The position numbers were made by a program, and so were the translations under genes. This document shows, piece after piece, positions 10,243 through 41,958 of a stretch of DNA of 64,000 nt (position 1 is the first letter of the stretch; every line of letters begins with the position of its first letter). The stretch is from a virus. Lineage: Duplodnaviria > Heunggongvirae > Uroviricota > Caudoviricetes. The DNA lies in the IMG/VR virus record IMGVR_UViG_3300020714_000006. One strand, given 5' to 3'. The notes beneath the pieces were generated by a model. The model was not told the DNA's origin. It saw nothing but the letters and a program-made list of their open reading frames with translations, and did no database searches.

Positions 10243-12063
10243 ATGAAAAAGAAGAAAAATAAAATAGCAAAACCAAAACAAATTGATGCTAATCAATTAA
10301 GAAACACTGCTGTAGCAATGCATCAACAAAACAAATTAATAGAAGCAGAAAAATTATACAAACAGCTATTAACTATATTACCAAATGATACTACTTGTTG
10401 GACTAATTTAGGAACACTAGAATACCAACGTGGCAACTTTAAAAATGCAATTCAATTCATTGATAAATCATTAAAGATAGATCCAAACCAACCATTTGCA
10501 CATAACAATCGTGGCAACATTCTTAAAGATCTTAATCTAGTCAATGAAGCATTAGAAAGTTATAGCAATGGTATAGCAATCAATGATAAACTTCCAGAAC
10601 TCTTATACAACCGTGCTATTACATTACATGAATTAGGCAGAGTTGATGAAGCATTGGAATCATACACCAAAACTATAGAAATTGATAATAATAATATCAA
10701 AGCATATATAAATCTTGGTAACATTCTTCATGAATTAAACAGATCACACGAAGCTATAGCAAACTATAATAAAGTAAAAGAACTACAACCAGATTTTGCA
10801 TTAGCTTATGCAAATTGTGGCATTGTTTACCAACATATCAATGATGACGAAAAAGCATTAGAGAACTATACCAAAGCTACCGCAATTGAACCTATGTCAT
10901 CAGTATATTCTAATCGTGGTAATATCTATCAAAATCAACATAAACTATTAGAAGCAATAGAAGAATATGAAAAAGCAATCAAAATAGATCCAACATTTCA
11001 TACTGCACACGGTAACAAAGCTAATGCCCTATTATCAGTAAGAAGACTAGAAGAAGCTGAGAAATCATATAATACAGCATTAACTATTGAACCAGACTTT
11101 GCTGATGCACTTTGGAATAAATCTATACTTCTATTATTATATGGACAATATGAAGAAGGTTTCAAATTGTTTGAAAATAGATGGCGTTCTGCACTTAAGA
11201 ACTATTATCGTAGATATGATAAACCATTGTGGAACGGACAATCATTACAAGATAAAACTATTTACATATACCCAGAACAAGGATTTGGTGACTTTATACA
11301 ATTTTGTAGATACCTACCAATGTTTGATAACATGAATTGTAAAGTAATAGTAGAAGTTCCAATACTGCTTCGAGATCTAGTGAAAACAATAAAATGCAAT
11401 GCAACATTTCTAGATTCTGAAACATTTGACAAAACTATACCATTTGATTATCATTGTCCTATAATGAGTCTACCAGGTGGATTTAAAACCACATTAGATA
11501 CTATACCAGCTGATATGCCATACTTATATCCAGTTGAATCTAAACAAAAGTACTGGGCAGATAAATTAGGACCAAAAACAAAAACAAGAGTGGGATTAGT
11601 ATGGTCTGGTGGATTTAGACCAGAACAACCAGAAACCTGGGCAGCTAACAGTAGAAGAAATATTAAATTAGCAAATCTAGAATGCTTTAAAGATATAGAT
11701 GTAGAATTCTATAGTATTCAAAAGGGCGCAACACCTGAAAAAGAATTAACAGATTTGGTTGCACAGAATTGGGATGGTCCAGTTATTACTAGTTATACCG
11801 ATGAATTAATAGACTTTGCTGATACCGCTGCTTTCATAAGCAACTTGGATTTAGTAATATCAGTTGACACATCTACTGCCCATGTAGCAGCTGCTATCGG
11901 TAAACCAGTATGGATATTTAATAGATTTGATGCTTGTTGGCGATGGTTACTTAACAGAACTGATAGTCCATGGTATCCAACTGTTACCTTGTTCAATCAA
12001 AAAGTTACCAATGAATGGGATGAAGTTATACAAGAAATACACGAGAAACTTAAAACATTATGA
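10243..12063 (+). CDS. TPR-repeat protein with a C-terminal glycosyltransferase family 9 (heptosyltransferase)-like domain.
   Basis: About eight TPR units (A..Y..A repeats) at the N-terminus. The C-terminal half has PEQGFGDFIQFCRY and VDTSTAHVAAAIGKPVWIF, which resemble GT9 motifs. The tracked ORF starts at GTG 10231; the ATG at 10243 (MKKKKNK) is more likely. Confidence 0.55.
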   Translation: MKKKKNKIAKPKQIDANQLRNTAVAMHQQNKLIEAEKLYKQLLTILPNDTTCWTNLGTLEYQRGNFKNAIQFIDKSLKIDPNQPFAHNNRGNILKDLNLVNEALESYSNGIAINDKLPELLYNRAITLHELGRVDEALESYTKTIEIDNNNIKAYINLGNILHELNRSHEAIANYNKVKELQPDFALAYANCGIVYQHINDDEKALENYTKATAIEPMSSVYSNRGNIYQNQHKLLEAIEEYEKAIKIDPTFHTAHGNKANALLSVRRLEEAEKSYNTALTIEPDFADALWNKSILLLLYGQYEEGFKLFENRWRSALKNYYRRYDKPLWNGQSLQDKTIYIYPEQGFGDFIQFCRYLPMFDNMNCKVIVEVPILLRDLVKTIKCNATFLDSETFDKTIPFDYHCPIMSLPGGFKTTLDTIPADMPYLYPVESKQKYWADKLGPKTKTRVGLVWSGGFRPEQPETWAANSRRNIKLANLECFKDIDVEFYSIQKGATPEKELTDLVAQNWDGPVITSYTDELIDFADTAAFISNLDLVISVDTSTAHVAAAIGKPVWIFNRFDACWRWLLNRTDSPWYPTVTLFNQKVTNEWDEVIQEIHEKLKTL

Positions 12064-12308
12064 CACAGAATACATTACCAGATTTATATAACATATCAGT
12101 TGAAGAACTTCCAGAAGACATTAAAGAAAAGTTATATGATATGCTATTTGATAATGAATATAACAATTATGAGGAATTCGATGATTTAATAAAAAAGGAA
12201 CTTGATGAATATTTGTATAGCTTTACGTCTGCTTTATATTTAGAAGGGTACCAATTAACATTTAAATCTGAAGCTCATTATACCTTTTTCCTACTCAAAT
12301 GGATGTAA
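12060..12308 (+). CDS. WFxLRW-family small protein (divergent member).
   Basis: C-terminus FKSEAHYTFFLLKWM, with an ATGA overlap to the upstream gene. Confidence 0.5.
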   Translation: MTQNTLPDLYNISVEELPEDIKEKLYDMLFDNEYNNYEEFDDLIKKELDEYLYSFTSALYLEGYQLTFKSEAHYTFFLLKWM

Positions 12309-12309
12309 T

Positions 12310-12546
12310 ATGTATAAAGTAATGATACCAGAAACAAACAAAATTGGTTACGAATGGACTAAGTTACATTTAATGAAGGCGTGGTGCAAAGAAACATATG
12401 GATATGCTAAGGTAGATAACAAATATATATGGCGTAGTAGAATGGAATATCATGTTGATTGGGGGAAGAATTCGGTTGATAAAATTGCGTGCTTCTATTT
12501 CCAAAAAGAAGAACACGCTACATGGTTTGTTTTACGATGGACTTGA
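12310..12546 (+). CDS. WFxLRW-family small protein.
   Basis: C-terminus FQKEEHATWFVLRWT. Confidence 0.6.
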   Translation: MYKVMIPETNKIGYEWTKLHLMKAWCKETYGYAKVDNKYIWRSRMEYHVDWGKNSVDKIACFYFQKEEHATWFVLRWT

Positions 12547-12752
12547 ATACTGCCGTAGTTGATTTAGAAAAATATGATAAGTTTAGATATAGAGATATCA
12601 ATTCATATAATGGATTTGCCAGATTAAATGCTACCTATATTTTTAAAAAGAAGTTCAAGATTACCGGTGAACGATTTGTAGCATTTAATGAATTAGAACT
12701 AACATTTGAAACTGAACAAGCCAAAACTTGGTTCTTATTAAACTTGCATTAA
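12489..12752 (+). CDS. WFxLRW-family small protein. The start is probably the ATG at 12542, overlapping the upstream stop.
   Basis: C-terminus FETEQAKTWFLLNLH. Confidence 0.5.
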   Translation: MLLFPKRRTRYMVCFTMDLNTAVVDLEKYDKFRYRDINSYNGFARLNATYIFKKKFKITGERFVAFNELELTFETEQAKTWFLLNLH

Positions 12753-13183
12753 TGTTTTGATACTTTATAAAAAGCAAGATTACCAGTCACATCATGATGC
12801 ATTTTCCAAGTTGGTAATAATATTTTGGCTAATCTGCTATATAACGATTGTCTATTTGAATCTTCGGCAGAAAAAATAACACTGTTGACTTCATGTGTAT
12901 TTAAAAAATCTTTCATTATAGATACAACAGTTGAGAATACAGATTTTTCACTACCAGTACCAGTTTTGCTATAAACCTTTTTACCTTTTACTATTTGATA
13001 AAATGCAATCTTCCACGATTCACCATAATTAAATGCATCAAAACCATATTTAAGTTTCTTTGAAAAGAATCTGCCAGGTTGAACTATTACAAATTCCGCT
13101 ACTGCTGATTTATTATCATTAACAATCCATTTATATGGAACAGTTGAATCAAATGATTCACTTAGTATTTCAATTATCTTCAT
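12749..13183 (-). CDS. Hypothetical protein on the opposite strand inside the plus-strand array.
   Basis: 144-aa ORF beginning MKIIEIL. Confidence 0.45.
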   Translation of the reverse strand: MKIIEILSESFDSTVPYKWIVNDNKSAVAEFVIVQPGRFFSKKLKYGFDAFNYGESWKIAFYQIVKGKKVYSKTGTGSEKSVFSTVVSIMKDFLNTHEVNSVIFSAEDSNRQSLYSRLAKILLPTWKMHHDVTGNLAFYKVSKH

Positions 13184-13213
13184 TAATATTTCTCCGATAG
13201 TGTATTTATTGGT

Positions 13214-13242
13214 CTTGACAAATATTAGTAATTAACATATAA
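13214..13242 (+). promoter_or_regulatory. Sigma70 consensus promoter.
   Basis: TTGACA(13214-19), a 17-nt spacer, then TATAAT(13237-42). Confidence 0.7.
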
Positions 13243-13250
13243 TAAAGAAT

Positions 13251-13457
13251 ATGAATACTATAACATTAAACCAAAAACAAACTAGAATTTTCTGGAGTGA
13301 CATTGTTTTTAACAAACAAGTAACTATACACTCTATTGACAAATACATTTATGACACATATAATATCACTAAACGTAGATGGACAACCCATAGAACGTTA
13401 GAACTAACTTTTGAAGATGAAAAATATATATCCCTCTTTCTTGTGAGGTGGTCATGA
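13251..13457 (+). CDS. WFxLRW-family small protein.
   Basis: C-terminus FEDEKYISLFLVRWS. Confidence 0.55.
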   Translation: MNTITLNQKQTRIFWSDIVFNKQVTIHSIDKYIYDTYNITKRRWTTHRTLELTFEDEKYISLFLVRWS

Positions 13458-13660
13458 ACGAAAAAGAAAATACATTTAATATATTAGCTAATAAACCATT
13501 ATTAATTACTAGTTCATTATGCTACGTTGGTATACATAGTTGGAGTAAATGGAACGACCCACACACACGAGCAGTTGCCGGATATCAAACTATATTTGAG
13601 ACAATTCAAGAAAAAACTTGTAGACATTGTAATTTAAGAAAATATAAGAAGTTTAAGTAG
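13448..13660 (+). CDS. Hypothetical small protein.
   Basis: ORF overlapping its upstream neighbour. Confidence 0.35.
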   Translation: MVMNEKENTFNILANKPLLITSSLCYVGIHSWSKWNDPHTRAVAGYQTIFETIQEKTCRHCNLRKYKKFK

Positions 13661-13730
13661 AGGGTTTAATGAAAATAGTTCAAATTCTAGAAGAAGATGA
13701 TATACTACACCAACTGATTATTGTAGACCA

Positions 13731-14111
13731 TTGATTTTAACTACATTTTCACCACAAAGTGATGTTTATTCATTTTATAATACCTATTCTGGTACACCAG
13801 AGAACAATGCAAAATGGATAAGAGTAGACCAAAAGTTTGGTGACTTCTGGTTTGGTAAGCCGGTAAAAGAATTAGTTATGGTGAACCCATATGAATTTAT
13901 TCGTGGTGAAATACCTAAAAGCCATTTCTATGGTAAAACACGTAAAGATATAGAAAACGAGTATGATGAATATTTAAGTTCTAATGCAATGCCATACGGA
14001 AAATACCAAGAATATACTTTTGCAGAAATAAAAGCGTATGATATATCTTATTTTTCATGGGCTACTGATAAAGAAATAATAAAGGTTATTGATTATGATA
14101 ATAAAGACTAA
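13731..14111 (+). CDS. Hypothetical protein.
   Basis: 126-aa ORF. Confidence 0.4.
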   Translation: MILTTFSPQSDVYSFYNTYSGTPENNAKWIRVDQKFGDFWFGKPVKELVMVNPYEFIRGEIPKSHFYGKTRKDIENEYDEYLSSNAMPYGKYQEYTFAEIKAYDISYFSWATDKEIIKVIDYDNKD

Positions 14112-14334
14112 GGTTATTAATGGTTCATACTTCCCTTTCTTAGCAGAAATGCGTGAGATCGAAGATAACGATTATATTGTTATCAGACAATGGTGTATAG
14201 ACCAATTTGGAATACCATCTAAAGCTGGCAGAGGGTTAGATACAACTGCAAGATGGTTGGAACCAATTTTTAGTAATGGTTTTAGATTTAAGAACGAAGC
14301 AGACCGTGTTTGGTTTGTAATGAGGTGGACATGA
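14089..14334 (+). CDS. WFxLRW-family small protein.
   Basis: C-terminus FKNEADRVWFVMRWT. The codons gaggtgg of RW plus ATGA serve the next gene. Confidence 0.6.
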   Translation: MIMIIKTKVINGSYFPFLAEMREIEDNDYIVIRQWCIDQFGIPSKAGRGLDTTARWLEPIFSNGFRFKNEADRVWFVMRWT

Positions 14335-14555
14335 AAATAGAGAAACTTGATAACAATCCTTACCCATATATTATTAGATTTAGAACCAACTGTGCTCTGA
14401 CACAATGGGAAGAAATGTATAATTGGTGCACAGAAACGTTTGGCACCGCATACGCAACAGAAGGTATCTGGATTAAACAATTGAATGGCATACGATTCAA
14501 ACATAAAGAACATGCTACCTGGTTTGTTTTACGATGGTCTGGTAATGACATATAA
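14310..14555 (+). CDS. WFxLRW-family small protein. The true start is probably the ATG at 14331.
   Basis: Contains WCTETFG and the C-terminus FKHKEHATWFVLRWSGNDI. Confidence 0.6.
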   Translation: MVCNEVDMKIEKLDNNPYPYIIRFRTNCALTQWEEMYNWCTETFGTAYATEGIWIKQLNGIRFKHKEHATWFVLRWSGNDI

Positions 14556-14751
14556 TATAATATTAAATTCAGAACAAACTAAAAAGTTTTGGAAAGAAGT
14601 CTGTGAGAAAGTAAATTGGGAAATGAGTGAGCTTGACCAGTACTTATATGACAAGTATACTATTGTAAAACGAACATGGCAATCTAATCGAACTTTACGT
14701 CTAACATTAGAAGATGAGAAATATATAACTTGGTTTAGCTTATACTTATGA
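14485..14751 (+). CDS. WFxLRW-family small protein (divergent).
   Basis: C-terminus LEDEKYITWFSLYL. Confidence 0.5.
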   Translation: MAYDSNIKNMLPGLFYDGLVMTYNIILNSEQTKKFWKEVCEKVNWEMSELDQYLYDKYTIVKRTWQSNRTLRLTLEDEKYITWFSLYL

Positions 14752-15020
14752 ATGATTGTGAATTATATTTAAATGAAGAAATGTGGGAAAGATTAAGAAC
14801 ATATCTTAATTACCTTGATCCTACTGATGAAATTATGTATTCTAACGGAAATCATAGACAACAATGGAAACGAGAAATTAAGAAACATTTTAAAGGAAAA
14901 TACTATGAACATACTAAGGCATCAAGTCGTAAATTTTGGGGTTATATAATGTTTGATAAACCAGAACATAAAACATGGTTTATTATCAAAATATCAGCAG
15001 AGGAAATGTATGATCATTGA
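14748..15020 (+). CDS. WFxLRW-family small protein (divergent).
   Basis: C-terminus FDKPEHKTWFIIKIS. Confidence 0.5.
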   Translation: MNDCELYLNEEMWERLRTYLNYLDPTDEIMYSNGNHRQQWKREIKKHFKGKYYEHTKASSRKFWGYIMFDKPEHKTWFIIKISAEEMYDH

Positions 15021-15249
15021 AAAACCAGGATATGTATTTACTTATAGTATTCAATTTGATTGGTTGTATCCTCATTTAGGGGAAATTTATGAATGGTGTG
15101 AAGATACTTTTGGTGAAGCATTTAATAACTCAGTTCATCAAGCAGTACATAATCCAGCAAAATGGACTAAACAAAGGGGTGGTGTAAGGTTTACAAAATT
15201 AGAACACGCTGAATGGTTTGTGTTACGGTGGAGTGGTATTGACATATAA
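14953..15249 (+). CDS. WFxLRW-family small protein.
   Basis: Contains YEWCEDTFGEAF and the C-terminus FTKLEHAEWFVLRWSGIDI. Confidence 0.6.
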   Translation: MINQNIKHGLLSKYQQRKCMIIEKPGYVFTYSIQFDWLYPHLGEIYEWCEDTFGEAFNNSVHQAVHNPAKWTKQRGGVRFTKLEHAEWFVLRWSGIDI

Positions 15250-34857: not shown

Positions 34858-35111
34858 TTCATATCTTCTCTATTTTTAAAATGAAAATGAGTTCCTGCTA
34901 CGAGCACACGGTCTCTTCCAAAATTATGACACCAGTCATGAATTGGTGGCAAATAGGTTTCATGCCAACCAGAACCTGGTTGATATAAATCATACCAATT
35001 AATGCTATAGATATCACACAATGAAAAAATAAGCCCATATTCATACTCTCTATCTAAAAAAGAAAATCTGTGAAACGTATATTCTTTCATGACCACCTCA
35101 ATACAAACCAA
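34833..35111 (-). CDS. WFxLRW-family small protein.
   Basis: Contains HDWCHNFG and the C-terminus FKNREDMNWFLLRWG. Confidence 0.6.
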   Translation of the reverse strand: MVCIEVVMKEYTFHRFSFLDREYEYGLIFSLCDIYSINWYDLYQPGSGWHETYLPPIHDWCHNFGRDRVLVAGTHFHFKNREDMNWFLLRWG

Positions 35112-35314
35112 TTATAATGCGCTTCACTTTCAAATGTAAGATATGTTTTTTCTAATGTTGCGTGAAATGGTTCTAACTCTTTATTGATATTATCAATTCT
35201 AGCAATTCTATCAACATGTAATAATCCAACTAAACTCTTACTCTTAAGAACAGTCTCTTGGTAAAAGTTCAACCACCCTGGAACAGTTATATAATTCTTT
35301 CTAATCTTTTTCAT
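35087..35314 (-). CDS. WFxLRW-family small protein.
   Basis: C-terminus FESEAHYNWFVLRWS. Confidence 0.6.
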   Translation of the reverse strand: MKKIRKNYITVPGWLNFYQETVLKSKSLVGLLHVDRIARIDNINKELEPFHATLEKTYLTFESEAHYNWFVLRWS

Positions 35315-35540
35315 GTCCCCACCTTAAAATAAACCAAGTATAATCTGCATCACTTAATGAATATTGATATGTCCCAGGCACCCATTTTGCCGACTTGTAT
35401 CCAATACTATGTAAAAACATCTCGCCACCTTCTCTGGATGTATTTCCAATTCTACTAGAGAAGTGATTACTAAATAATTTTCGAAGTTCTGGATATGAAA
35501 CTATTCGTATTGTTTTCATGAAAACCTCAATATAAACCAA
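35301..35540 (-). CDS. WFxLRW-family small protein.
   Basis: C-terminus DADYTWFILRWGHEKD. Confidence 0.6.
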   Translation of the reverse strand: MVYIEVFMKTIRIVSYPELRKLFSNHFSSRIGNTSREGGEMFLHSIGYKSAKWVPGTYQYSLSDADYTWFILRWGHEKD

Positions 35541-35734
35541 TTACGGTCTGCTTCATTTTTAAATTTAAATACATTACCGTAATTGGTGCTAGTATAAATC
35601 CAACTACTGGATTTATTCAAGTTTTGTGGTTTACCCCATTGTTCTTCACACCATTTATACATTTCTTTACGTTTCTTAAAATCTTCATCCGTTAAGACAA
35701 TATGAAATGTATATAATTCTTCATCAATATACAT
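35516..35734 (-). CDS. WFxLRW-family small protein.
   Basis: Contains YKWCEEQWG and the C-terminus FKNEADRNWFILRFS. Confidence 0.6.
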   Translation of the reverse strand: MYIDEELYTFHIVLTDEDFKKRKEMYKWCEEQWGKPQNLNKSSSWIYTSTNYGNVFKFKNEADRNWFILRFS

Positions 35735-35739
35735 TATGA

Positions 35740-36030
35740 TTATTTCCTATAAATATTATTACCATTCATGAATTGGACCATAACAAATTCTTCTTCTGTA
35801 TATTGTTTGCCATTTAAAAACCATGCTTTATACCCATTTGGGTATTCAACAGCAGGGCCATCCAGTCTATGTCTTTTGCCATTTAACCACCATTCTTTAT
35901 GACCAGTTATACCTTCATATGCTGGACCATCTTCTCGGTGTAATCGGCCATTTAATCGCCATGATTTAGTACCGTCTGGATATTCATATTGTTTTGGTTG
36001 TGTTTTCATGACCACCTCAATAAAAACCAA
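35740..36030 (-). CDS. MORN-like repeat protein embedded in the array.
   Basis: LHREDGPAYE, HRLDGPAVEY and YTEEEF. The real start is the internal ATG that forms an ATGA with the upstream stop. Confidence 0.55.
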   Translation of the reverse strand: MVFIEVVMKTQPKQYEYPDGTKSWRLNGRLHREDGPAYEGITGHKEWWLNGKRHRLDGPAVEYPNGYKAWFLNGKQYTEEEFVMVQFMNGNNIYRK

Positions 36031-36254
36031 TTTGCATATGCTTCGTTTCTAAATTTAACTTGAATTGTGCCAATAGTTGTTAGATAGAATGCCCATTCCT
36101 GGTCTTTAAGATAATAAGAATATCCACCGTTCTCTAAACCACCAAAACTTTCAACCAGCCAGTTGTATACCTGATTGGCATTTGATGGAACTTTTATTTC
36201 AATACAATAAAGTTTTTGACCAAGTAAGTCTGTGCTGCATCTAATATTGTTCAT
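36006..36254 (-). CDS. WFxLRW-family small protein.
   Basis: C-terminus FRNEAYANWFLLRWS*. Its last codons (ttgaggtgg tca TGA) provide a GAGGTGG Shine-Dalgarno and an ATGA start for the next gene. Confidence 0.65.
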   Translation of the reverse strand: MNNIRCSTDLLGQKLYCIEIKVPSNANQVYNWLVESFGGLENGGYSYYLKDQEWAFYLTTIGTIQVKFRNEAYANWFLLRWS

Positions 36255-36480
36255 TTGACCACCTTAACATAAACCAATTACGATCTTCCTCCGTTAAAAA
36301 TCTAATGCTAGGATAATCAAATTCTGTATTTACTACATGCCATTTTATTCCATGTTCACCAAATGTATCAGTACACCAATCAATATATTCACTTAATAAG
36401 AAACGTTCGTTATTTTCTAAATCTATAAGATATATAAAAACTTCATTAAATGCTTTCACGACCACCTCAATACAAACCAA
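36241..36480 (-). CDS. WFxLRW-family small protein.
   Basis: Contains IDWCTDTFGEHG and the C-terminus EEDRNWFMLRWSNEQY. Confidence 0.6.
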   Translation of the reverse strand: MVCIEVVVKAFNEVFIYLIDLENNERFLLSEYIDWCTDTFGEHGIKWHVVNTEFDYPSIRFLTEEDRNWFMLRWSNEQY

Positions 36481-36791
36481 TTACGATCTTCTTCACGTAA
36501 GAAACAAAACAAATCACAATCATAGGATTCACGATAATCATGAACCCATCGTTCATATTGTTCACCAAAAGTTTCTTCACACCATTCCCATAATGCTTCT
36601 GCCCAATCTACATTTTCTTGCAATGTAGATTCTATTTTCAATCTATCATCATAGTATAAATTAACCTGCCAGACAAATTCTTCTTTATAAAGTTCCATTT
36701 TAACTCCACTTAAAAATAAACCAGGTCTTGTGTTCTGGTTTTTTAAATGTAATTTTAAATCCATCATACAAATTACCACCAATAGTTGCAT
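36456..36791 (-). CDS. WFxLRW-family small protein.
   Basis: Contains WEWCEETFGEQYE and the C-terminus REEDRNWFVLRWS. Confidence 0.6.
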   Translation of the reverse strand: MQLLVVICMMDLKLHLKNQNTRPGLFLSGVKMELYKEEFVWQVNLYYDDRLKIESTLQENVDWAEALWEWCEETFGEQYERWVHDYRESYDCDLFCFLREEDRNWFVLRWS

Positions 36792-36927
36792 TAAATTCTG
36801 AATTTAACATAGTATCTAACTCTACACTATTGACAATTTTATAATGTTTAACATAATGTTTAATAAAATTTATCCAATATAACGGACACCTGTGTAGTTC
36901 GCCTGGTAATTGAATTACATTATCCAT
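36700..36927 (-). CDS. WFxLRW-family small protein.
   Basis: C-terminus FKKPEHKTWFIFKWS. Confidence 0.55.
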   Translation of the reverse strand: MDNVIQLPGELHRCPLYWINFIKHYVKHYKIVNSVELDTMLNSEFNATIGGNLYDGFKITFKKPEHKTWFIFKWS

Positions 36928-37274
36928 TATGCTACCGTATATTCAATATCATCTGGTAATTCAAAATGAAAATTAAACTTTGGAAAACGTTCATGTGCAA
37001 CCTCTAATGCTTCGTCTACTGATTCACCTTGTGATACAAATGTCCCACATTCTTTAAACCACATCATAATTTGATTACCATGTTTCTCAACTTCTAATTC
37101 TACATACTCATATCCCTCATCACTTTCAACAGTATATGATCTAGTAGCGTTGTCAAATAACTCTATAACTGATTTTGGATCTCGTGCATAAGCACGCATT
37201 ATTATTTTATTCCATAAAAATCCACCAATAAACATGCCAAACAAAAATGCACCAATTACTAATAAAATCATCAT
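36927..37274 (-). CDS. Protein with an N-terminal transmembrane helix. It is a paralog of the frameshifted 20831-20994.
   Basis: MMILLVIGAFLFGMFIGGFLWNKIIMRAY. Confidence 0.45.
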   Translation of the reverse strand: MMILLVIGAFLFGMFIGGFLWNKIIMRAYARDPKSVIELFDNATRSYTVESDEGYEYVELEVEKHGNQIMMWFKECGTFVSQGESVDEALEVAHERFPKFNFHFELPDDIEYTVA

Positions 37275-37275
37275 A

Positions 37276-37725
37276 TTATTTTCCTCTTGTTAGTTTACTT
37301 AATAATAAAAAATTGTCATAACTTTGTTGTAAAGCTGGGTTCTCTAATATTTCTTCAGCTTCTTTAATCATTTCTGAAACACCAGCTCTCACAGCTTCCA
37401 TTATAGTAGAAGTTTTCAATCTACACAAGTCTTCCCCATAGACTTCTCTCATACGGTCCCATGCTTCTTTTTGTTCTTGTGTATATGGTGGTATTTCTGG
37501 AGTATAAGTCAACTTATCTACAATAATAGCAGCAATGCGGTCTTCTGCATAACTTCCAGCAGCAATCATTGGTGCAAATGCTGGTTCAATGTTATATCGT
37601 CTAGATCTAGACCCTGGTTTGCATACTGTTAGATGAGTGCCTTCTGGCCAAGAATCGTTAAATTCATTGTCATATTCACGTGCAGGAATATATTTTCTGC
37701 CTTTTTTGATAAAATAAGTAGTCAT
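37276..37725 (-). CDS. Hypothetical protein.
   Basis: 149-aa ORF with no family motif. Confidence 0.4.
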   Translation of the reverse strand: MTTYFIKKGRKYIPAREYDNEFNDSWPEGTHLTVCKPGSRSRRYNIEPAFAPMIAAGSYAEDRIAAIIVDKLTYTPEIPPYTQEQKEAWDRMREVYGEDLCRLKTSTIMEAVRAGVSEMIKEAEEILENPALQQSYDNFLLLSKLTRGK

Positions 37726-37778
37726 TGATGGTTCCTGTAATCGTTAAAGTTCTATTATAACAATTACAGGAATAGATG

Positions 37779-38042
37779 TCAAGTAGAAAACTTGATTGTG
37801 TAGAATGTGTAATCTGATGGTTTAATATAAGCTGTTATATAATATTCGTATCCAAGGGTATATGGATGGTAATGTTTAACTACCTCTATATGTATACAAT
37901 GATTACTAACCCATTGTCCTTCTTCAGAATTTAGCCAAATATCTAATATTTCATTCTGTGTCGGTGATGTCATATATATTACCACTCTATGAAATATTTT
38001 TCTTTCATACACGGAGTCGTTAAATATCTTAAAATTATCCAT
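37779..38042 (-). CDS. WFxLRW-family small protein (divergent).
   Basis: C-terminus YTFYTIKFST. Confidence 0.45.
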   Translation of the reverse strand: MDNFKIFNDSVYERKIFHRVVIYMTSPTQNEILDIWLNSEEGQWVSNHCIHIEVVKHYHPYTLGYEYYITAYIKPSDYTFYTIKFST

Positions 38043-38045
38043 GTA

Positions 38046-38231
38046 TTATCCCCACTTTAACAAATACCAAGTAAAATCTGATTCATTTCTAAAGTAGATA
38101 TAGTTTTGAAACTGAAACCATCGGTTGGTATCAACTTTAAATTGTTCAGTACACCAGGTAACTTGGTCCCATCGTGTACTATTACAACTAGATAGCAGTA
38201 CACCATAATAATCGTGTAATTCTTCAGACAT
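38046..38231 (-). CDS. WFxLRW-family small protein.
   Basis: Contains VTWCTEQF and the C-terminus FRNESDFTWYLLKWG. Confidence 0.55.
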   Translation of the reverse strand: MSEELHDYYGVLLSSCNSTRWDQVTWCTEQFKVDTNRWFQFQNYIYFRNESDFTWYLLKWG

Positions 38232-38505
38232 TTTTATAATTGGTACTAGTTTCTTCTTTGTCCCACTTTAAAACAGCCCATGTATATTTTGCTTTTGCTT
38301 CTTCTTCATTGTCATATTTCCAACCAAACTTATTGATTCTATTTTGACTATTCAATATAGAATCATATTCTGTCATCTTATCTGCCGCTGTCCAAAACCG
38401 GTGTCTTAAATTTAAATCTATTTGATAATATTTTTGTTTTCTTACAGAATGTTCAGATAGCGAAAATTTATCAGATTTGTTTAATAATTTATGGCTATTT
38501 CTCAT
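38224..38505 (-). CDS. WFxLRW-family small protein (divergent).
   Basis: C-terminus EEAKAKYTWAVLKWDKEETSTNYKNV. Confidence 0.45.
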   Translation of the reverse strand: MRNSHKLLNKSDKFSLSEHSVRKQKYYQIDLNLRHRFWTAADKMTEYDSILNSQNRINKFGWKYDNEEEAKAKYTWAVLKWDKEETSTNYKNV

Positions 38506-38512
38506 TATTCTC

Positions 38513-38743
38513 TTATTTTTCTTCTTTTTTAGGAACTCTTTCAGACCATCTTAATAAAAAGAAATCACGATGGCCTTCATTTTTAAATGACCATAACCTA
38601 TCAGTCATAAAAATTCCACAATTAGAGCTTTCACTCCAATCAATCATTTCATCGCGTAAATCATCATTCATTTCATCACGGTCAAATGATAGACCTGGTA
38701 GTTTGAACATTCCCACGGATACGTGCTTCATATAACTCTCCAC
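38513..38743 (-). CDS. WFxLRW-family small protein.
   Basis: C-terminus FKNEGHRDFFLLRWSERVPKKEEK. Confidence 0.55.
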   Translation of the reverse strand: MESYMKHVSVGMFKLPGLSFDRDEMNDDLRDEMIDWSESSNCGIFMTDRLWSFKNEGHRDFFLLRWSERVPKKEEK

Positions 38744-38785
38744 ATAAAATTAAAAATAATATTGTATAATAAAACTGGTTAAATG

Positions 38786-39121
38786 TCAACTCAAAAATTC
38801 ACTATACTTTAATAAGAAAAAAGTTCTCTTTGGCTCACTATAAAAATCTAAGTGTATCATATTGGAATAATACCCTCTAGATGGTTGAATCATATAAGTT
38901 TCATCTACAATTTTATTAGCATATTGTTTCATGAATTCATCGTACATTGGATTTTCTATCCATGTACGATGCGACCTTGATGTAAATCCCAAAACTTTCT
39001 TAGTTTTTTCTCTTATGGCTAGAACACTTTTTGGATAATCTTTATACATTTCTATTAATAAATTATGCCATTGCATCTCTGATATTATTACTGGTTTCAT
39101 TGCCACCTCATTAAGAACCAT
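38786..39121 (-). CDS. WFxLRW-family small protein (divergent).
   Basis: C-terminus YSEPKRTFFLLKYSEFLS. Confidence 0.45.
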   Translation of the reverse strand: MVLNEVAMKPVIISEMQWHNLLIEMYKDYPKSVLAIREKTKKVLGFTSRSHRTWIENPMYDEFMKQYANKIVDETYMIQPSRGYYSNMIHLDFYSEPKRTFFLLKYSEFLS

Positions 39122-39309
39122 TGATAATGCGCTGTACTTTCAAATGTGAGAACACGATCTTGATATATTGCATTAAATTTTTGTAATTCAGCATTACGAA
39201 TTTCCAACCACAGTTCTTCATCATTCCCAGACATGCTATCACAATGATCACGAAGATTCAATATTACGGTGTCTGGCATATAACTGATACTTATTTTTAC
39301 TTCATCCAT
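39097..39309 (-). CDS. WFxLRW-family small protein.
   Basis: C-terminus FESTAHYQWFLMRWQ. Confidence 0.55.
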   Translation of the reverse strand: MDEVKISISYMPDTVILNLRDHCDSMSGNDEELWLEIRNAELQKFNAIYQDRVLTFESTAHYQWFLMRWQ

Positions 39310-39560
39310 TTTAATCTAAACCATGTCATTTGGGCACGTTTTAATTTCCTAGCATCAAATTCTACATACCATTCTGTCTCACGACCGTAATCATTCCAGT
39401 GATACCGTTTAATCATTGCCCAACCTTTGCCAGTTATATAGTCGGTAGACCAAAATTTGTGGTCATCTATTGGTCCAAAATGTTTTATTAACCATTCTTG
39501 AAGTTCTGTGTATTCAGGACTATCATATTCTATTAAATCTTTAACTTGTTTTCTAAGCAC
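39297..39560 (-). CDS. WFxLRW-family small protein.
   Basis: C-terminus RKLKRAQMTWFRLKWMK. Confidence 0.5.
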   Translation of the reverse strand: MLRKQVKDLIEYDSPEYTELQEWLIKHFGPIDDHKFWSTDYITGKGWAMIKRYHWNDYGRETEWYVEFDARKLKRAQMTWFRLKWMK

Positions 39561-39897
39561 TGTGTTTTATCAAATAAAATGTTAAATATTCATTATCCAA
39601 AATAGCCATATCAGTTGGATATCTATTGTGTTCGCCTTTGTACCATGTATTGGTATTCGCATTTAAGATTTGTATCTTAACCATCTTTGGATTGAGTTTT
39701 ATAACTTTTGCTACTTCTAATCTATTATAGACACTAACAGCTACAAAATCACCAACTTTGATCTTACGACCGATTATATCAAAATGAACTAGTTCCTTTT
39801 TAGGGGTTCTCTTCTTCTCTGTCATATACTTCCCATGTATTATTTTCATAGTCCCAATGTCTTGTATCATAAACTGTATATTCCAGAGTATAACCAA
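39553..39897 (-). CDS. Hypothetical protein, a possible distant family member.
   Basis: C-terminus YLTFYLIKHSA. Confidence 0.35.
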   Translation of the reverse strand: MVILWNIQFMIQDIGTMKIIHGKYMTEKKRTPKKELVHFDIIGRKIKVGDFVAVSVYNRLEVAKVIKLNPKMVKIQILNANTNTWYKGEHNRYPTDMAILDNEYLTFYLIKHSA

Positions 39898-40090
39898 ACA
39901 ACCCTAATTTAGTATTCAACCCTGCGTGGTCACAGTTAATACTTAAACAAAACTCGATATTAATAATTTGATCTGTGCGATATAGATTAAGTTCCCATGC
40001 TTTATGGGTTGTAAGTAACCCATTTGTCCCCCAAATCAAATTCCAAGTATTAGACCAAGGATTTGAAATTAAAAAATTAAAAGTTATCAT
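39800..40090 (-). CDS. Hypothetical protein.
   Basis: ORF. Confidence 0.35.
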   Translation of the reverse strand: MITFNFLISNPWSNTWNLIWGTNGLLTTHKAWELNLYRTDQIINIEFCLSINCDHAGLNTKLGLFGYTLEYTVYDTRHWDYENNTWEVYDREEENP

Positions 40091-40447
40091 TTATATCACC
40101 AAACAAAATGCAAGATAGCCAATATAACACAAATGATGAAAAAGCTGGTCAAGACCGATATGACACCAAAATTGTTTATCATTCATATCACGATTACCAT
40201 AATTCATTTTAATCCAATCGATATGGTAATGTAAAATTATATCAATTATACCAATAAATAATGCTTGGTTGAATGGAACTATGAATAAGAAAATAGCATA
40301 AGTTAAAAGACCATGTTTAACACTATGCCCTACACCAATCATATTACCATATATGCCTTTTGTCTGAACTTCATCTTGCGATTGATTCATGAAATCCACA
40401 TGGTAATGTTTTAATTGTAAAAATACAAGGACTAATAATATGTCCAT
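40091..40447 (-). CDS. Membrane protein with about four transmembrane helices.
   Basis: Hydrophobic helices with HYH motifs (HYHVDF, HYHIDW). Confidence 0.45.
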   Translation of the reverse strand: MDILLVLVFLQLKHYHVDFMNQSQDEVQTKGIYGNMIGVGHSVKHGLLTYAIFLFIVPFNQALFIGIIDIILHYHIDWIKMNYGNRDMNDKQFWCHIGLDQLFHHLCYIGYLAFCLVI

Positions 40448-40483
40448 AAAAATCTCCGAATTTAAATTATTAGTATACTACAG

Positions 40484-40819
40484 TTATTTGTTATTGTCAA
40501 GGTTTTCTTCAGCTTGACATATTTGTTTAACCATATTGTAATTGTTCTTGGCATTTAATAATGCTGGATACTTTTCAAGTATATCCTTTTCATTCATCTC
40601 TTCTATCATCTTTTGTTTAGCCCATTCTAATATTTGTACTGCTTCAAATGATAAATCTACCGCAGCATCTCCTTGTAATTCGTACCACGCGGTACCAGAA
40701 TTATATTCTACTCTACCATTTTTATACCTCATTTGACCACATTCTGCTAATGGGTCTAAATTGGATGAGTTAAAATTATAAGATGTTAGATATCGCCCTG
40801 TTGTTATTTTATTGATCAT
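40484..40819 (-). CDS. Hypothetical protein.
   Basis: ORF. Confidence 0.4.
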   Translation of the reverse strand: MINKITTGRYLTSYNFNSSNLDPLAECGQMRYKNGRVEYNSGTAWYELQGDAAVDLSFEAVQILEWAKQKMIEEMNEKDILEKYPALLNAKNNYNMVKQICQAEENLDNNK

Positions 40820-40988
40820 AGTTCTTTCACGTTAAATTTTAATAGTAAAAATGTTAAATCTGAATCATTTGTCAGTCTAAGATCCACTAAATTTTTTAAA
40901 TCCCACCGAGTGCCATAGCCACCCCAATTATTATTGATATACCAAATTACTTCCATTGGGTCTTCAAATTTCCAAATTGGTATTGATA

Positions 40989-41234
40989 TCATATTCCAAA
41001 CTTAATCCTAAATAACATATACTTTTGTTCATTTACAATTATGTAGTTTGCAGTAATATACCCATCTATTGTTATAGATATTCCATATGTTTTTTCAATA
41101 TATTCAGACAAATCTGCAAATTTCTTATGACATTCTGTAGATGCAATAGTTCTAATTATTTGATAAAACTTATCACGTTTTATACGTTCTTCGGCTAATT
41201 TTGGATCCATTATTTCCACCTTAATATAAACCAA
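40989..41234 (-). CDS. Hypothetical protein, a possible distant family member.
   Basis: C-terminus KYMLFRIKFGI. Confidence 0.35.
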   Translation of the reverse strand: MVYIKVEIMDPKLAEERIKRDKFYQIIRTIASTECHKKFADLSEYIEKTYGISITIDGYITANYIIVNEQKYMLFRIKFGI

Positions 41235-41443
41235 GTGTACACATCTTCTCTAAGATCATAGCAATTTTCTTCCTGCCAATAATCCTTAAATCTACGGTTT
41301 GCAGTATACCGCCATCCATCTGATTGGTTAATAATCCAATCGTTTATCTCTGGTCTATTAGATCTAATCGTATACCATTTTTCATTTAAATCTTGGACAA
41401 CCCGAACATTTTCATATGGTTTTGTAAATGCAGATGGAACCAA
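41210..41443 (-). CDS. WFxLRW-family small protein.
   Basis: C-terminus DLREDVYTWFILRWK. Confidence 0.55.
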   Translation of the reverse strand: MVPSAFTKPYENVRVVQDLNEKWYTIRSNRPEINDWIINQSDGWRYTANRRFKDYWQEENCYDLREDVYTWFILRWK

Positions 41444-41479
41444 AATATGATTAAAAAAAGATTTCAGAACACAAATTTT

Positions 41480-41701
41480 TCATTCTGAACACCATCTTAA
41501 TGCAAACATTGTTGAATCAATATCACGATATAACGTTAAAACACCACCTTGCATATTAAATTTCATTTTACGTTCTCGAAGCCATTCTGCTACATTATTC
41601 CATTCTACTGTTGTTAGACCTTTTTCGTTATTACTTAATAAAAAGCTATTATTTTCAAATGGCATTTTACGTATTCTCATCCCCACCTCAATGCAAACCA
41701 A
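41480..41701 (-). CDS. WFxLRW-family small protein.
   Basis: C-terminus RDIDSTMFALRWCSE. Confidence 0.5.
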   Translation of the reverse strand: MVCIEVGMRIRKMPFENNSFLLSNNEKGLTTVEWNNVAEWLRERKMKFNMQGGVLTLYRDIDSTMFALRWCSE

Positions 41702-41958
41702 TTACGGTCTGCTTCATCCTTTATTAAAATTCTTTCAGATCCAAGCCAACACCATTTAGGATTTACTTCACCCATACATGCTATTTCCTCATATTCATAG
41801 TATTCACAACTTGGTCCAAACTGTTCCCAACACCATTGGCGGATATCACGTACTCTAGCCATATTTTCTGATTTATTATAATGATACATTAACGCCATAT
41901 AGGTAAAATATGAATTACCATTGTGTCTACCATCCATCTTTTGTATTTTTATTTTCAT
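41677..41958 (-). CDS. WFxLRW-family small protein, the first gene of the minus-strand array.
   Basis: Contains IRQWCWEQFGP and the C-terminus IKDEADRNWFALRWG. Confidence 0.6.
   Translation of the reverse strand: MKIKIQKMDGRHNGNSYFTYMALMYHYNKSENMARVRDIRQWCWEQFGPSCEYYEYEEIACMGEVNPKWCWLGSERILIKDEADRNWFALRWG

What the first reader, a model, noticed from the sequence alone, without database searches (positions are those of the whole stretch)
12060..41958. Two oppositely oriented arrays of about 30 paralogous Trp-rich mini-proteins (WFxLRW family) flanking the 19-kb early region
A plus-strand array of at least 9 genes (12060-15249) and a minus-strand array of at least 20 genes (34660-41958) encode 65-110 aa proteins. 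These proteins share a mid-region motif, (Y/I)xWCxExFG, and a C-terminal motif, F(K/E)xE(A/E)(D/H)RNWFxLRW(S/G), while the rest of each protein is hypervariable. I cannot place the family in any characterised protein family from memory. This copy number and diversification, in a phage region otherwise made of early and accessory genes, suggests an expanded host-interaction family. Candidate roles are anti-defence decoys or inhibitors, or packaged internal proteins. The inverted arrangement also provides dozens of short inverted microhomologies such as gaagatcgtaattggtt, which could mediate inversion of the intervening segment.
Basis: seen in the sequence. Interest (0 to 1): 0.88.

Follow-up and report, generated by a model that had tools for sequence, protein, structure and literature searches.

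The report
Early arrays of novel phage mini-proteins
A large uncultured phage starts its two early transcription units with arrays of about two dozen related, tryptophan-rich 60-100 aa proteins from a widespread but undescribed family, probably a toolkit for taking over or disarming the host, though no function has been tested.

Summary
The arrays are real, but smaller and less uniform than described. A C-terminal-module HMM finds 22 firm members (8 on +, 14 on -) and about 5 marginal ones. All lie within 12054-15249 and 34660-41961, and none elsewhere in the 64 kb. Only 13 carry the full domain with WCxExFG. The others share only the last ~30 residues, and at least 14 unrelated small genes are interspersed.

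The family has no Pfam, PHROG, NCBIfam or PDB-sequence match and no hit in 50,697 deposited phages. It has 1,725 cluster representatives in metagenomes and forms arrays of up to ~36 copies in other large phage contigs. AlphaFold gives a confident beta-beta-alpha-beta-beta-alpha fold with only generic structural neighbours.

Both arrays head convergent units driven by perfect sigma-70 promoters (16 in the window, 0.08 expected). Genes are translationally coupled: the C-terminal Arg-Trp is encoded AGG-TGG, which is the next gene's Shine-Dalgarno.

Orthologues are syntenic in related phages and under purifying selection. Relatives elsewhere fuse the module to the most conserved block of the T4-type capsid protein.

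An early host-takeover or counter-defence role is the best inference, but it is untested. The proposed inversion is not supported.

The parts
12060..15249 (+). Plus-strand array: 8 firm and 1 marginal family members. It also holds 3 unrelated genes (12749-13183 on the - strand, 13448-13660, 13731-14111).
34660..41958 (-). Minus-strand array: 14 firm and 4 marginal family members, interspersed with about 10 unrelated small genes.
   Evidence: syntenic with arrays in L006/L004/L012
12060..12308 (+). Member, 82 aa, C-terminal-module type (...LTFKSEAHYTFFLLKWM).
   Evidence: E 2e-8
12310..12546 (+). Member, 78 aa, full-domain type. Arg-Trp is encoded CGA TGG.
   Evidence: E 4.5e-10
12537..12752 (+). 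Member, 71 aa, divergent C-terminal-module type (...TWFLLNLH).
   Evidence: E 7e-5
13251..13457 (+). Member, 68 aa, C-terminal-module type. It ends AGG TGG TCA TGA.
   Evidence: E 3.6e-4; E 1.2e-6
14095..14334 (+). Member, 79 aa, full-domain type.
   Evidence: E 3e-11; start taken from the gene call in L001
14331..14555 (+). Member, 74 aa, full-domain type. This is the protein whose structure was predicted. It is identical to P0001.
14512..14751 (+). Marginal member (...EDEKYITWFSLYL).
   Evidence: E 0.039; E 0.11
14748..15020 (+). Member, 90 aa, divergent, with a C-terminal extension (...HKTWFIIKISAEEMYDH).
   Evidence: E 2e-4
15010..15249 (+). Member, 79 aa, full-domain type. Last gene of the plus array. 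Arg-Trp is encoded CGG TGG and no coupled downstream gene follows.
41677..41958 (-). Member, 93 aa, full-domain type. First gene of the minus array.
   Evidence: E 5e-12
41210..41680 (-). Two marginal members (41480-41680 and 41210-41443).
   Evidence: E 0.011 and 0.031; orthologues in L028/L006
39097..39309 (-). Member, 70 aa, C-terminal-module type.
   Evidence: E 3.5e-8
38786..39100 (-). Member, 104 aa, divergent (...RTFFLLKYSEFLS).
   Evidence: E 4.8e-4
38513..38731 (-). Member, 72 aa, full-domain type with a C-terminal tail. The orthologue in L006 is 83% identical, with dN/dS 0.07.
38046..38231 (-). Member, 61 aa, full-domain type.
36700..36927 (-). Member, 75 aa, C-terminal-module type.
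   Evidence: E 7e-9
36456..36698 (-). Member, 80 aa, full-domain type, very acidic (pI 4.2).
   Evidence: orthologue P0005
36241..36459 (-). Member, 72 aa, full-domain type. GTG start overlaps the upstream stop.
36006..36254 (-). Member, 82 aa, full-domain type.
35516..35734 (-). Member, 72 aa, full-domain type.
35301..35519 (-). Member, 72 aa, C-terminal-module type.
   Evidence: E 4e-8
35087..35314 (-). Member, 75 aa, C-terminal-module type. Structure predicted: beta-alpha-alpha-beta-beta-alpha.
34833..35090 (-). Member, 85 aa, full-domain type.
34660..34836 (-). Member, 58 aa, full-domain type. Last family member of the minus array.
   Evidence: E 1e-14
41986..42014 (-). Perfect sigma-70 consensus promoter (TTGACA-17-TATAAT) heading the minus array.
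37754..37782 (-). Perfect sigma-70 consensus promoter inside the minus array. Near-perfect (11/12) ones lie at 40472-40500 and 38761-38789.
10181..10209 (+). Perfect sigma-70 promoter upstream of the TPR-glycosyltransferase gene (10231-12063). That gene's stop overlaps the first plus-array gene as ATGA.
13215..13243 (+). Perfect sigma-70 promoter inside the plus array. Further ones lie at 13336-13364 and 15239-15267.
34332..34354 (-). Intrinsic-terminator-like hairpin (9-bp stem, 6 GC pairs, then a T-run) where the two convergent early units meet.

Best explanation
Shown:
- The window comes from a large uncultured tailed phage. An identical protein sits on a 306-kb contig.
- Its accessory region is organised as two convergent transcription units driven by perfect host-type sigma-70 promoters.
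- Each unit begins with a polycistronic array. Together the arrays encode 22 firm (about 27 plausible) paralogues of a previously undescribed family of 58-104 aa proteins.
- The family's shared unit is a C-terminal beta-strand plus helix ending W-F-x-L-(R/K)-W.
- Thirteen members have a complete beta-beta-alpha-beta-beta-alpha domain. The others have a helical N-terminal variant of it.
- Genes are translationally coupled. The Arg-Trp of the motif is encoded AGG-TGG, so (G)AGGTGG serves as the Shine-Dalgarno of the next gene, and the next ATG usually overlaps the stop as ATGA.
- Each paralogue has positional orthologues in related phages and is under purifying selection.

Inferred:
- The proteins are made in the first minutes of infection by unmodified host RNA polymerase.
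- They act as a repertoire of small stoichiometric binders. The aromatic core is a constant scaffold.
- The variable surface or N-terminal half (pI 4.1 to 9.6) lets each paralogue engage a different host target, or possibly a target from a competing phage.
- The overall role would be host takeover and counter-defence.
- Array size changes by whole-gene gain and loss through recombination between the near-identical gene junctions.
For: Family reality and census:
- HMM hits are confined to the two arrays, and the reversed-sequence control is clean.

Fold:
- Both subtypes fold with confidence: pLDDT 89 and 86.

Protein-level selection:
- Codon positions 1 and 2 are more conserved than position 3 at the motif residues.
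- R is encoded by AGG, AGA, CGA, CGG and CGT, and K substitutes for it.
- Orthologue dN/dS is 0.07-0.42.
- Gene-by-gene synteny holds with L006/L004/L012.

Early expression:
- 16 perfect TTGACA-17-TATAAT sites against 0.08 expected; 15 of them lie at 10.2-42.0 kb and are co-oriented with the genes.
- A terminator lies at the convergence point.
- Perfect promoters also sit at array heads in other phages.

Translational coupling:
- In the window, the motif Arg is AGG in 12/17 cases against 16/221 in long ORFs (P about 1e-10).
- In other loci it is 117/165 against 171/2248.
- It is 77% when an ATG follows within 8 nt and 39% otherwise (P 4e-4).
- 148/187 genes stop one codon after the Trp.

Expansion and diversity:
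- Up to about 36 copies in 11 kb (L022), and 1,725 cluster representatives.
- Whole-gene indels occur between close relatives.
- pI ranges from 4.1 to 9.6.

Context:
- The neighbours fit a T4-type plastic accessory region: Seg-like GIY-YIG endonucleases, NADAR, a kinase.

Literature:
- Phage accessory genes of this kind mostly antagonise host defences (bioRxiv 10.1101/2023.04.06.535777).
- A Seg endonuclease can amplify anti-defence loci (PMC13096335).
Against: - There is no functional evidence of any kind and no homology to any known anti-defence or host-shutoff protein.
- The family was not found in any of 50,697 deposited phages or in PHROGs, so nothing can be transferred from cultured systems.
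- Orthologues evolve under purifying selection and keep their positions. That is not the signature of a fast arms race.
- Five of six consecutive residues of the last helix are conserved. This could mean a shared partner, fitting the adaptor model, rather than a pure scaffold role.
- Early timing is inferred from promoter sequence only.
Confidence: 0.5

Rival explanations
1. Adaptor family with a common handle. The invariant C-terminal helix (W-F-x-L-R-W) would be an exposed docking surface for one shared partner, such as a host hub (RNA polymerase, ribosome/EF-Tu, a protease) or a phage protein. The variable N-terminal half would bring different cargo or targets to that partner. This resembles viral multigene families that pair a variable head with a conserved C-terminal docking motif.
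For: - The only element shared by all members is the last ~30 residues.
- Five of six consecutive helix residues are conserved, which is more than one buried face needs.
- The module is found at the C-terminus behind many unrelated N-terminal pieces. These include a capsid-protein block, a P-loop fragment, a fibre-type motif and a second copy of the module.
Against: - In both AlphaFold models the helix is an integral part of the fold packed on the sheet, so conservation may simply reflect the hydrophobic core of a very small domain.
- Part of the conservation of Arg-Trp is a ribosome-binding-site constraint.
- No partner is known.
Confidence: 0.17
2. Packaged or capsid-targeted proteins. Members would be incorporated into the prohead and delivered with the DNA, like the T4 internal proteins, to act immediately in the next host.
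For: - In related phages, at least 24 distinct relatives carry the module behind the N-terminal part of a T4-type major capsid protein.
Against: - The window has no such fusion.
- Window members start directly with the first beta-strand and share no N-terminal targeting or cleavage motif.
- They sit behind consensus early promoters, not in late or structural operons.
- The fusions themselves lie inside the same kind of array, downstream of a perfect sigma-70 promoter (L004).
- Short fusion variants keep only the conserved ~25-aa capsid block, not the propeptide.
Confidence: 0.07
3. The conserved element is essentially a DNA- or RNA-level cassette junction (ribosome-binding site plus overlapping start, and a recombination substrate). 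The encoded peptides would be incidental or selfish filler.
For: - The junction consensus TGGTTT-nnn-TTG-AGG-TGG-TCA-TGA recurs.
- AGG is strongly over-used at the motif Arg.
- Array content differs between close relatives by whole genes.
Against: - Third codon positions are the least conserved at the motif residues.
- The residue type is kept with other codons and where no gene follows.
- Conservation extends over ~30 to ~65 residues that fold confidently.
- dN/dS is below 0.5 and orthologues are positionally conserved at 40-85% identity.
Confidence: 0.04
4. The inverted arrays serve as recombination substrates that invert the intervening 19-kb early segment.
For: Oppositely oriented paralogues give inverted matches such as 14273-14337 against 35513-35577 (65 nt, 82%).
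Against: - The matches are short and imperfect.
- Every contig read keeps the same array-to-NADAR junction. That is 24 contigs read for P0001, shown as 3 places plus 21 similar places.
- Related phages keep the same convergent layout: epimerase, then array, then a Band_7/AAA_33/AAA block on the other strand.
- Inversion would turn the promoters and genes of one block against the other.
Confidence: 0.03

Closest known systems
Early accessory ('hyperplastic') regions of T4-type phages and host-takeover modules such as that of Bacillus phage SPO1 (from general knowledge), and phage accessory genes in general (Silas et al., bioRxiv 10.1101/2023.04.06.535777)
   Same: - Dense runs of small, mostly dispensable genes behind strong host-type early promoters.
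- Seg-type homing endonucleases as neighbours.
- Gene content varies between close relatives.
- The presumed role is host takeover and counter-defence.
   Different: - Here one paralogous family is repeated 22-27 times (up to about 36 in other phages). Those known regions are collections of unrelated ORFans.
- Genes are tightly translationally coupled through a motif-encoded Shine-Dalgarno.
- There is no sequence similarity to any T4 or SPO1 early protein (PHROGs negative).
T4 internal proteins (IPI/IPII/IPIII), a polymorphic locus with a conserved capsid-targeting sequence (from general knowledge)
   Same: - Small, highly diversified proteins of T4-type phages that share one short conserved terminal segment.
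- At least one (IPI*) is an anti-restriction factor.
   Different: - In the IPs the conserved segment is an N-terminal targeting peptide that the prohead protease removes.
- Here it is a C-terminal structural module, and no N-terminal signal is shared.
- The genes are early.
- Packaging was not tested.
PCD/DCoH-like two-layer beta-beta-alpha-beta-beta-alpha sandwiches (PDB 2ebb, 1uso, 4low)
   Different: - Sequence identity is 7-10%.
- No Pfam match to the pterin dehydratase family.
Tandem arrays of diversified small immunity proteins in polymorphic-toxin loci, and their viral recruits (SUKH and others; PMC3113570, PMC3482391)
   Same: Many paralogous small binder proteins in head-to-tail arrays, each presumed to neutralise a different partner. 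Such arrays also occur in DNA viruses.
   Different: - No homology.
- Those arrays sit next to toxin genes in cellular genomes, whereas these are early phage operons.
- This is an analogy of logic only.
Gol region of T4 gp23, the EF-Tu-binding trigger of the Lit abortive-infection protease (review PMC3014915)
   Same: The capsid-protein block fused to the module in relatives aligns with T4 gp23 residues 75-131 (E 3e-10). That span includes VRRAIPNLIAFDICGVQPMNSPTGQVF. The review describes Gol as the most conserved region of gp23.
   Different: - This applies to relatives in other phages, not to any gene in this window.
- Binding to EF-Tu or to any sensor is untested.
- The exact Gol residue numbers are from my memory, not from the text retrieved.

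Membership tests
Any curated protein family (Pfam-A, PHROGs v4, NCBIfam 20) | Significant match to a family profile HMM | tested here: not met
   - Ten members against Pfam: nothing above a curated cut-off, best E 0.012 to an unrelated family.
- PHROGs: best E 0.015, unknown function.
- NCBIfam: 0 of 13 members matched.
Any protein with a solved structure | Sequence-profile match to PDB chains | tested here: not met
   The A1 profile against 177,635 PDB sequences gave a best E of 0.18, to unrelated proteins.
Pterin-4a-carbinolamine dehydratase / DCoH | Fold: beta-beta-alpha-beta-beta-alpha sandwich | tested here: inconclusive
Pterin-4a-carbinolamine dehydratase / DCoH | Sequence membership (Pfam pterin dehydratase profile, catalytic His motif) | tested here: not met
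   No Pfam hit at E <= 1. No conserved His in alignment A1.
T4-type internal proteins | Shared N-terminal capsid-targeting sequence ending in a prohead-protease site | tested here: not met
   N-termini are not conserved among members (alignments A1, A2).
T4-type internal proteins | Presence in the virion | not testable with these tools
   Needs virion proteomics.
Early (host sigma-70-dependent) phage transcription unit | Consensus -35/-10 promoters co-oriented with the genes, and a terminator at the end | tested here: met
   - 16 perfect sites against 0.08 expected.
- Promoters at 42014 and 37782 on - and at 10181, 13215, 13336 and 15239 on +.
- Terminator at 34354-34332.
- Actual timing was not measured.
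Translationally coupled operon | Overlapping stop/start (ATGA) with a Shine-Dalgarno inside the upstream coding sequence at functional spacing | tested here: met
   - GAGGTGG lies about 5 nt (from GAGG) before the ATG.
- ATGA-type overlap occurs in 96/187 members of other loci and in most window junctions.
- AGG enrichment gives P 5e-79.
Gp23 major capsid protein family (PF07068) - for the fused relatives only | Match to the Gp23 profile | tested here: met
   - The N-terminal 87 aa of P0034 matches PF07068 positions 3-41 (E 6e-11) and phrog_138 major head protein (E 4e-12).
- tblastn to 2,039 phage records, with major capsid/head protein annotated under most of the listed matches.
- Only a fragment of the capsid protein is present.
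- No window gene has it.
Known anti-defence protein families | Homology to a characterised inhibitor, or a demonstrated inhibition phenotype | not tested
   - No dedicated anti-defence library was available.
- Pfam and PHROGs (negative) would cover the well-known ones.
- A phenotype needs experiments.

The most novel reading that the evidence does not exclude
The module would be a carrier that displays, early in infection, short conserved blocks of the phage's own late or essential proteins. The firm case is the ~25-residue 'lPmIrKvmP.lIa.qi.GVQPM' block of the T4-type major capsid protein, which corresponds to the Gol/EF-Tu-binding region that triggers the Lit abortive-infection protease in E. 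coli. Weaker cases are a KaiC/DnaB-like P-loop fragment and a fibre-type motif.

In this reading, the fusions are decoys or competitive inhibitors. They would pre-occupy host sensors that recognise conserved phage proteins, or occupy EF-Tu itself, without activating them. The unfused paralogues of the arrays would form a broader anti-sensor repertoire built on the same scaffold. That would be a new class of counter-defence: phage-encoded mimics of its own molecular patterns.
Probability: 0.1. Interest if true: 0.9.

Novelty: new variant of a known kind. Interest (0 to 1): 0.62.

Why it matters
Most phage genes are small early ORFs of unknown function. Recent work shows that many of them are counter-defence factors.

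What this finding offers:
- A single family that is invisible to the annotation libraries searched (Pfam, PHROGs, NCBIfam), yet has at least 1,725 sequence clusters.
- Up to about 36 tandem copies per phage, so it occupies a noticeable share of the early coding capacity of a clade of large environmental phages.
- A concrete, foldable, clonable target: a 60-80 aa domain whose model is high-confidence.
- A natural series of variants for binder-target screens.
- A clean example of a protein motif (Arg-Trp) co-opted as the next gene's ribosome-binding site.
- Conserved fusions to the most conserved capsid-protein block. These give a testable entry point into how phages might manage host sensing of capsid proteins.

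Tried and rejected
1. Chance or non-coding ORFs: rejected, on the HMM census with a reversed control, the confident folds and dN/dS.
3. Cultured relatives: megablast of the minus array gave none. tblastn of one typical member (a database relative, P0009) gave none. A neighbouring ATPase is at most 50% identical to any deposited phage.
4. My memory-based identification of one fusion partner as large terminase was not supported: PHROG E 0.07 and no tblastn hit. A profile instead hits KaiC/DnaB-like P-loop ATPases marginally (E 0.0035). A 'PolB motif B' guess for P0182 had no support.
A degenerate DNA pattern returned 120 loci that are essentially all chance matches, with no HMM hit below 5e-4. 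This is uninformative.
6. dN/dS on close relatives: the contigs that carry 78-96% identical orthologues have no DNA on file, and L001-L003 are 100% identical to the window. Only diverged pairs with near-saturated dS could be used.
7. Uniformly acidic DNA-mimic idea: rejected, because pI spans 4.1-9.6.
8. Literature: no paper contains the motif strings, and no description of such a family was found.
9. Rfam and tRNA scans of the window: nothing.

Full report
**1. Observation**

ORF listing shows dense runs of 58-115 aa ORFs on the + strand at 12.06-15.25 kb and on the - strand at 34.4-41.96 kb. Many of them end in ...NWFxLRW(S/G).

I ran three censuses:
- An HMM from 13 obviously related members (alignment A1). 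It hits those 13 at E 1e-14 to 1e-26, and a second tier only through the C-terminus.
- A deeper HMM made from 211 database relatives. It gives 13 hits below 1e-12 and 6 more below 1e-4.
- A C-terminal-module HMM built from 345 sequences, none from this window. It gives 22 ORFs at E <= 5e-4, against a best reversed-sequence score of E 0.94.

All hits lie inside the two arrays, and nothing else in the 64 kb approaches significance. The count is 8 firm members on + (one more marginal) and 14 firm on - (four more marginal). About 14 unrelated small genes are interspersed.

The W-C-x-E-x-F-G motif is confined to the 13 full-domain members. The other group is related to them only over the last ~31 columns (hhalign 96%, E 2e-9). 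Members contain about 6% Trp and 12-25% aromatic residues (most 16-24%).

**2. Gene structure and dual coding**

The frequent 'MVCIEVVMK' N-termini in the ORF list are the preceding gene's WFxLRWS read in another frame. At nucleotide level most junctions read TTG AGG TGG TCA TGA. That spells Leu-Arg-Trp-Ser-stop, and at the same time GAGGTGG (a Shine-Dalgarno) followed by an ATG that overlaps the stop.

Use of AGG for the motif Arg:

| Comparison | Motif Arg = AGG | Reference | P |
|---|---|---|---|
| Window motif vs the window's long ORFs | 12/17 | 16/221 | about 1e-10 |
| 29 other loci vs long ORFs there | 117/165 | 171/2248 | 5e-79 |
| ATG within 8 nt vs no nearby ATG | 77% | 39% | 4e-4 |

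In addition, 148/187 genes stop exactly one codon after the Trp, and in 96/187 the next ATG overlaps as AGGTGGnnATGA.

The motif is also under protein-level selection:
- Arg is also encoded by AGA, CGA, CGG and CGT.
- Lys substitutes for Arg in 22-26 members.
- Codon positions 1 and 2 carry more information than position 3 at F, D/H, F, L and R.

The C-terminal Arg-Trp is therefore a protein motif whose codons have been recruited as the ribosome-binding site of the next gene. The arrays are translationally coupled operons.

**3. Transcription**

The pattern TTGACA-N17-TATAAT occurs 16 times in the window, against 0.08 expected from shuffles.
- Thirteen sites lie on the + strand between 10181 and 30441.
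- Two lie on the - strand, at 42014 (63 nt divergent region, directly upstream of the first minus-array gene) and at 37782.
- Near-perfect sites lie at 40500 and 38789 on the - strand.
- A strong hairpin with a T-run at 34354-34332 marks where the two blocks converge.

Perfect promoters are likewise found at the heads of arrays in other phages, for example L004 at 6513, L006 at 8782 and L029 at 8191.

The region from 10 to 42 kb is therefore two convergent units read by unmodified host sigma-70 RNA polymerase, and the family arrays are promoter-proximal. This supports 'early' from sequence only. Timing was not measured.

**4. What the protein is**

- There is no Pfam, PHROG, NCBIfam or PDB-sequence match.
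- AlphaFold2 on A1 gives pLDDT 89 and pTM 0.76, with topology beta-beta-alpha-beta-beta-alpha.
- A member of the C-terminal-only group gives pLDDT 86, with beta-alpha-alpha-beta-beta-alpha. The first strand and the alpha-beta-beta-alpha half are the same, and strand 2 is replaced by a helical insert.
- BFVD returns only uncharacterised proteins of uncultured phages.
- The conserved residues are mostly large aromatics plus the helix-1 cap (W-C-x-E-x-F-G), as expected for the core of a very small domain.
- Surfaces vary widely, with pI 4.1-9.6.

**5. Distribution and evolution**

- The word-indexed search found 65 relatives, all unnamed. The identical protein is on contigs up to 306 kb.
- The exhaustive profile search found 1,725 representatives (50% clusters) at E <= 1e-3. 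Nearly all are 54-130 aa, with the module at the C-terminus.
- In IMG/VR, 28 loci from contigs of 7.7-372 kb (GC 33-47%) carry arrays: about 36 members in 11 kb in L022, 19 in L012, and 17 each in L019 and L032.
- tblastn of one typical member (a database relative, P0009) finds nothing in 50,697 deposited phages.
- The minus array is collinear, gene by gene, with arrays in L006/L004/L012 at 40-85% identity.
- Eleven such orthologue pairs were analysed. Nine give dN/dS of 0.07-0.42, with dS near saturation, so the values are rough. In the other two, dS is fully saturated and no ratio could be computed.
- Close relatives differ by insertion or deletion of whole genes.

The paralogues are therefore old, individually maintained proteins. 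Array size changes by gene gain and loss, plausibly through recombination between the near-identical junctions (inference). Seg-like GIY-YIG endonuclease genes lie in the same region. A Seg endonuclease has been shown to drive segmental amplification of anti-defence loci in T6 (PMC13096335), which offers a possible amplification route. This is an analogy and was not tested.

**6. Fusions in relatives**

This is the only functional hint. Relatives of 100-165 aa carry the module behind unrelated N-terminal pieces.

*Capsid-protein block (firm).*
- At least 24 distinct sequences contain a '...lPmIrKvmP.lIa.qi.GVQPM.gpsG...' block. It starts 5 to 59 residues from the N-terminus.
- It matches Pfam Gp23 positions 3-41 (E 6e-11) and phrog_138 major head protein (E 4e-12).
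- It matches 2,039 phage records by tblastn, with major capsid/head protein annotated under most of the listed matches.
- It aligns with T4 gp23 residues 75-131 (E 3e-10).
- A review states that the Gol region of gp23 binds EF-Tu and activates the Lit abortive-infection protease. It also states that Gol is the most conserved region of gp23 in T4-related phages (PMC3014915).
- These fusion genes sit inside the same early-type arrays (L004).

*Other partners (weaker).*
- A Walker-A fragment resembles KaiC/DnaB-like ATPases (E 0.0035). It is not terminase, as I first guessed.
- A fibre-type 'G-x-(V/L)-R-(Y/F)-N...E...G..W' motif has moderate PHROG support and no PDB support.
- One protein has two modules in tandem (P0125).

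None of these fusions occurs in this window. However, the unrelated array gene 40484-40819 carries the fibre-type motif.

**7. Interpretation**

Shown:
- A real, large, undescribed protein family with a confident small alpha/beta fold.
- Arrayed in translationally coupled operons behind consensus host promoters.
- Conserved and syntenic across a clade of large uncultured phages.

Inferred (confidence about 0.5): an early-expressed repertoire of small binder proteins for host takeover and counter-defence. This is in line with what is known of phage accessory genes (bioRxiv 10.1101/2023.04.06.535777).

Alternatives:
- An adaptor family that uses the C-terminal helix as a common docking handle (0.17).
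- Packaged proteins (0.07).
- A DNA-level cassette junction with incidental peptides (0.04; largely refuted by the codon-position and dN/dS data).
- An inversion substrate (0.03).

The inversion idea is not supported. Inverted matches between the arrays are <= 65 nt at about 80%. All contigs read for this phage and its relatives keep the same junctions and the same convergent layout.

**8. Novelty and score**

The kind of thing (small early accessory genes in a plastic region of a large T4-type phage) is known. What is new:
- The family itself.
- The scale of its tandem expansion.
- The motif-encoded ribosome-binding site.
- The conserved fusions to the Gol-like capsid block.

I rate it a new variant of a known kind, with interest 0.62. 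The most novel reading that the evidence does not exclude is a scaffold that displays mimics of the phage's own conserved proteins to blunt host sensors. It has low probability (about 0.1) but would be of high interest.

Noticed in passing
window 10181-42014 (and 53130-53158): There are sixteen perfect TTGACA-N17-TATAAT promoters, against 0.08 expected. They define two convergent early blocks that meet at a terminator at 34332-34354.
   Followed up: yes
window 28705-29292 (-) and 32479-33444 (-): Two Seg-like GIY-YIG homing-endonuclease genes (phrog_314 for both; PF19835 SegE_GIY-YIG for the second only). They are oriented against the surrounding + strand early genes.
   Followed up: partly
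window 53178-54458 (+): A TnpB/Cas12f-like protein (PF07282 TNB domain; transposase PHROGs) encoded in the phage. A perfect sigma-70 promoter lies on the opposite strand just upstream (53130-53158).
   Followed up: no
window 20789-20978 (+) vs 37126-37316 (-); 17263-17855 (+) vs 35740-36030 (-): Other paralogue pairs are shared between the two convergent blocks. One is a small membrane-type protein whose 5' region, including the Shine-Dalgarno and start, is 94% identical over 52 nt. The other is a set of proteins made of MORN-like 'W..NGK.HR.DGPA' repeats.
   Followed up: no
window 12749-13183 (-): A DUF6934 gene (144 aa) lies on the opposite strand inside the plus array. It is conserved at the same place in relatives.
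   Followed up: partly
window 40484-40819 (-): This array gene lacks the family module but carries a fibre-type 'GQMRYKNGRVEYNSGTAWYEL' motif. The same motif forms the N-terminal piece of some module fusions elsewhere (P0203, P0107).
   Followed up: partly
L004 8001-8480; L006 9641-10138; L028 6730-7212; L032 11303-11719; proteins P0015-P0042 etc.: Conserved fusions join the most conserved block of the T4-type major capsid protein (aligned to T4 gp23 residues 75-131, the Gol/EF-Tu-binding region) to the family module. They are located inside early-type arrays of related phages.
   Followed up: partly
proteins P0055-P0060; L021 9991-10407: The module is fused to a Walker-A-containing fragment that resembles KaiC/DnaB-like ATPases (E 0.0035). 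A truncated P-loop like this cannot be an active enzyme.
   Followed up: partly
protein P0125 (141 aa): Two family modules in tandem within one polypeptide.
   Followed up: no
contigs of P0002 vs window 14751-15020: Close relatives carry 4-5 extra tandem genes (mostly 110-116 aa) inserted in the plus array that the window phage lacks. Array content is therefore fluid at short evolutionary distance.
   Followed up: no
window 60546-62930 (+): A 794-aa protein with an Mtd_N (major tropism determinant N-terminal) domain and a pectate-lyase-like domain. No reverse transcriptase was looked for.
   Followed up: no
window 10231-12063 (+): A 610-aa protein with TPR repeats (TPR Pfam hits). The glycosyltransferase-like C-terminal half is my own reading of the sequence, not a tool result. 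Its stop overlaps the first array gene as ATGA, so it is co-transcribed and coupled with the plus array from the promoter at 10181.
   Followed up: partly
whole window: Strong use of consensus sigma-70 promoters and GAGGTG Shine-Dalgarno sites suggests a host with canonical promoters and SD-led initiation. From general knowledge, this argues against Bacteroidota. The window has no tRNA genes and no Rfam families.
   Followed up: partly
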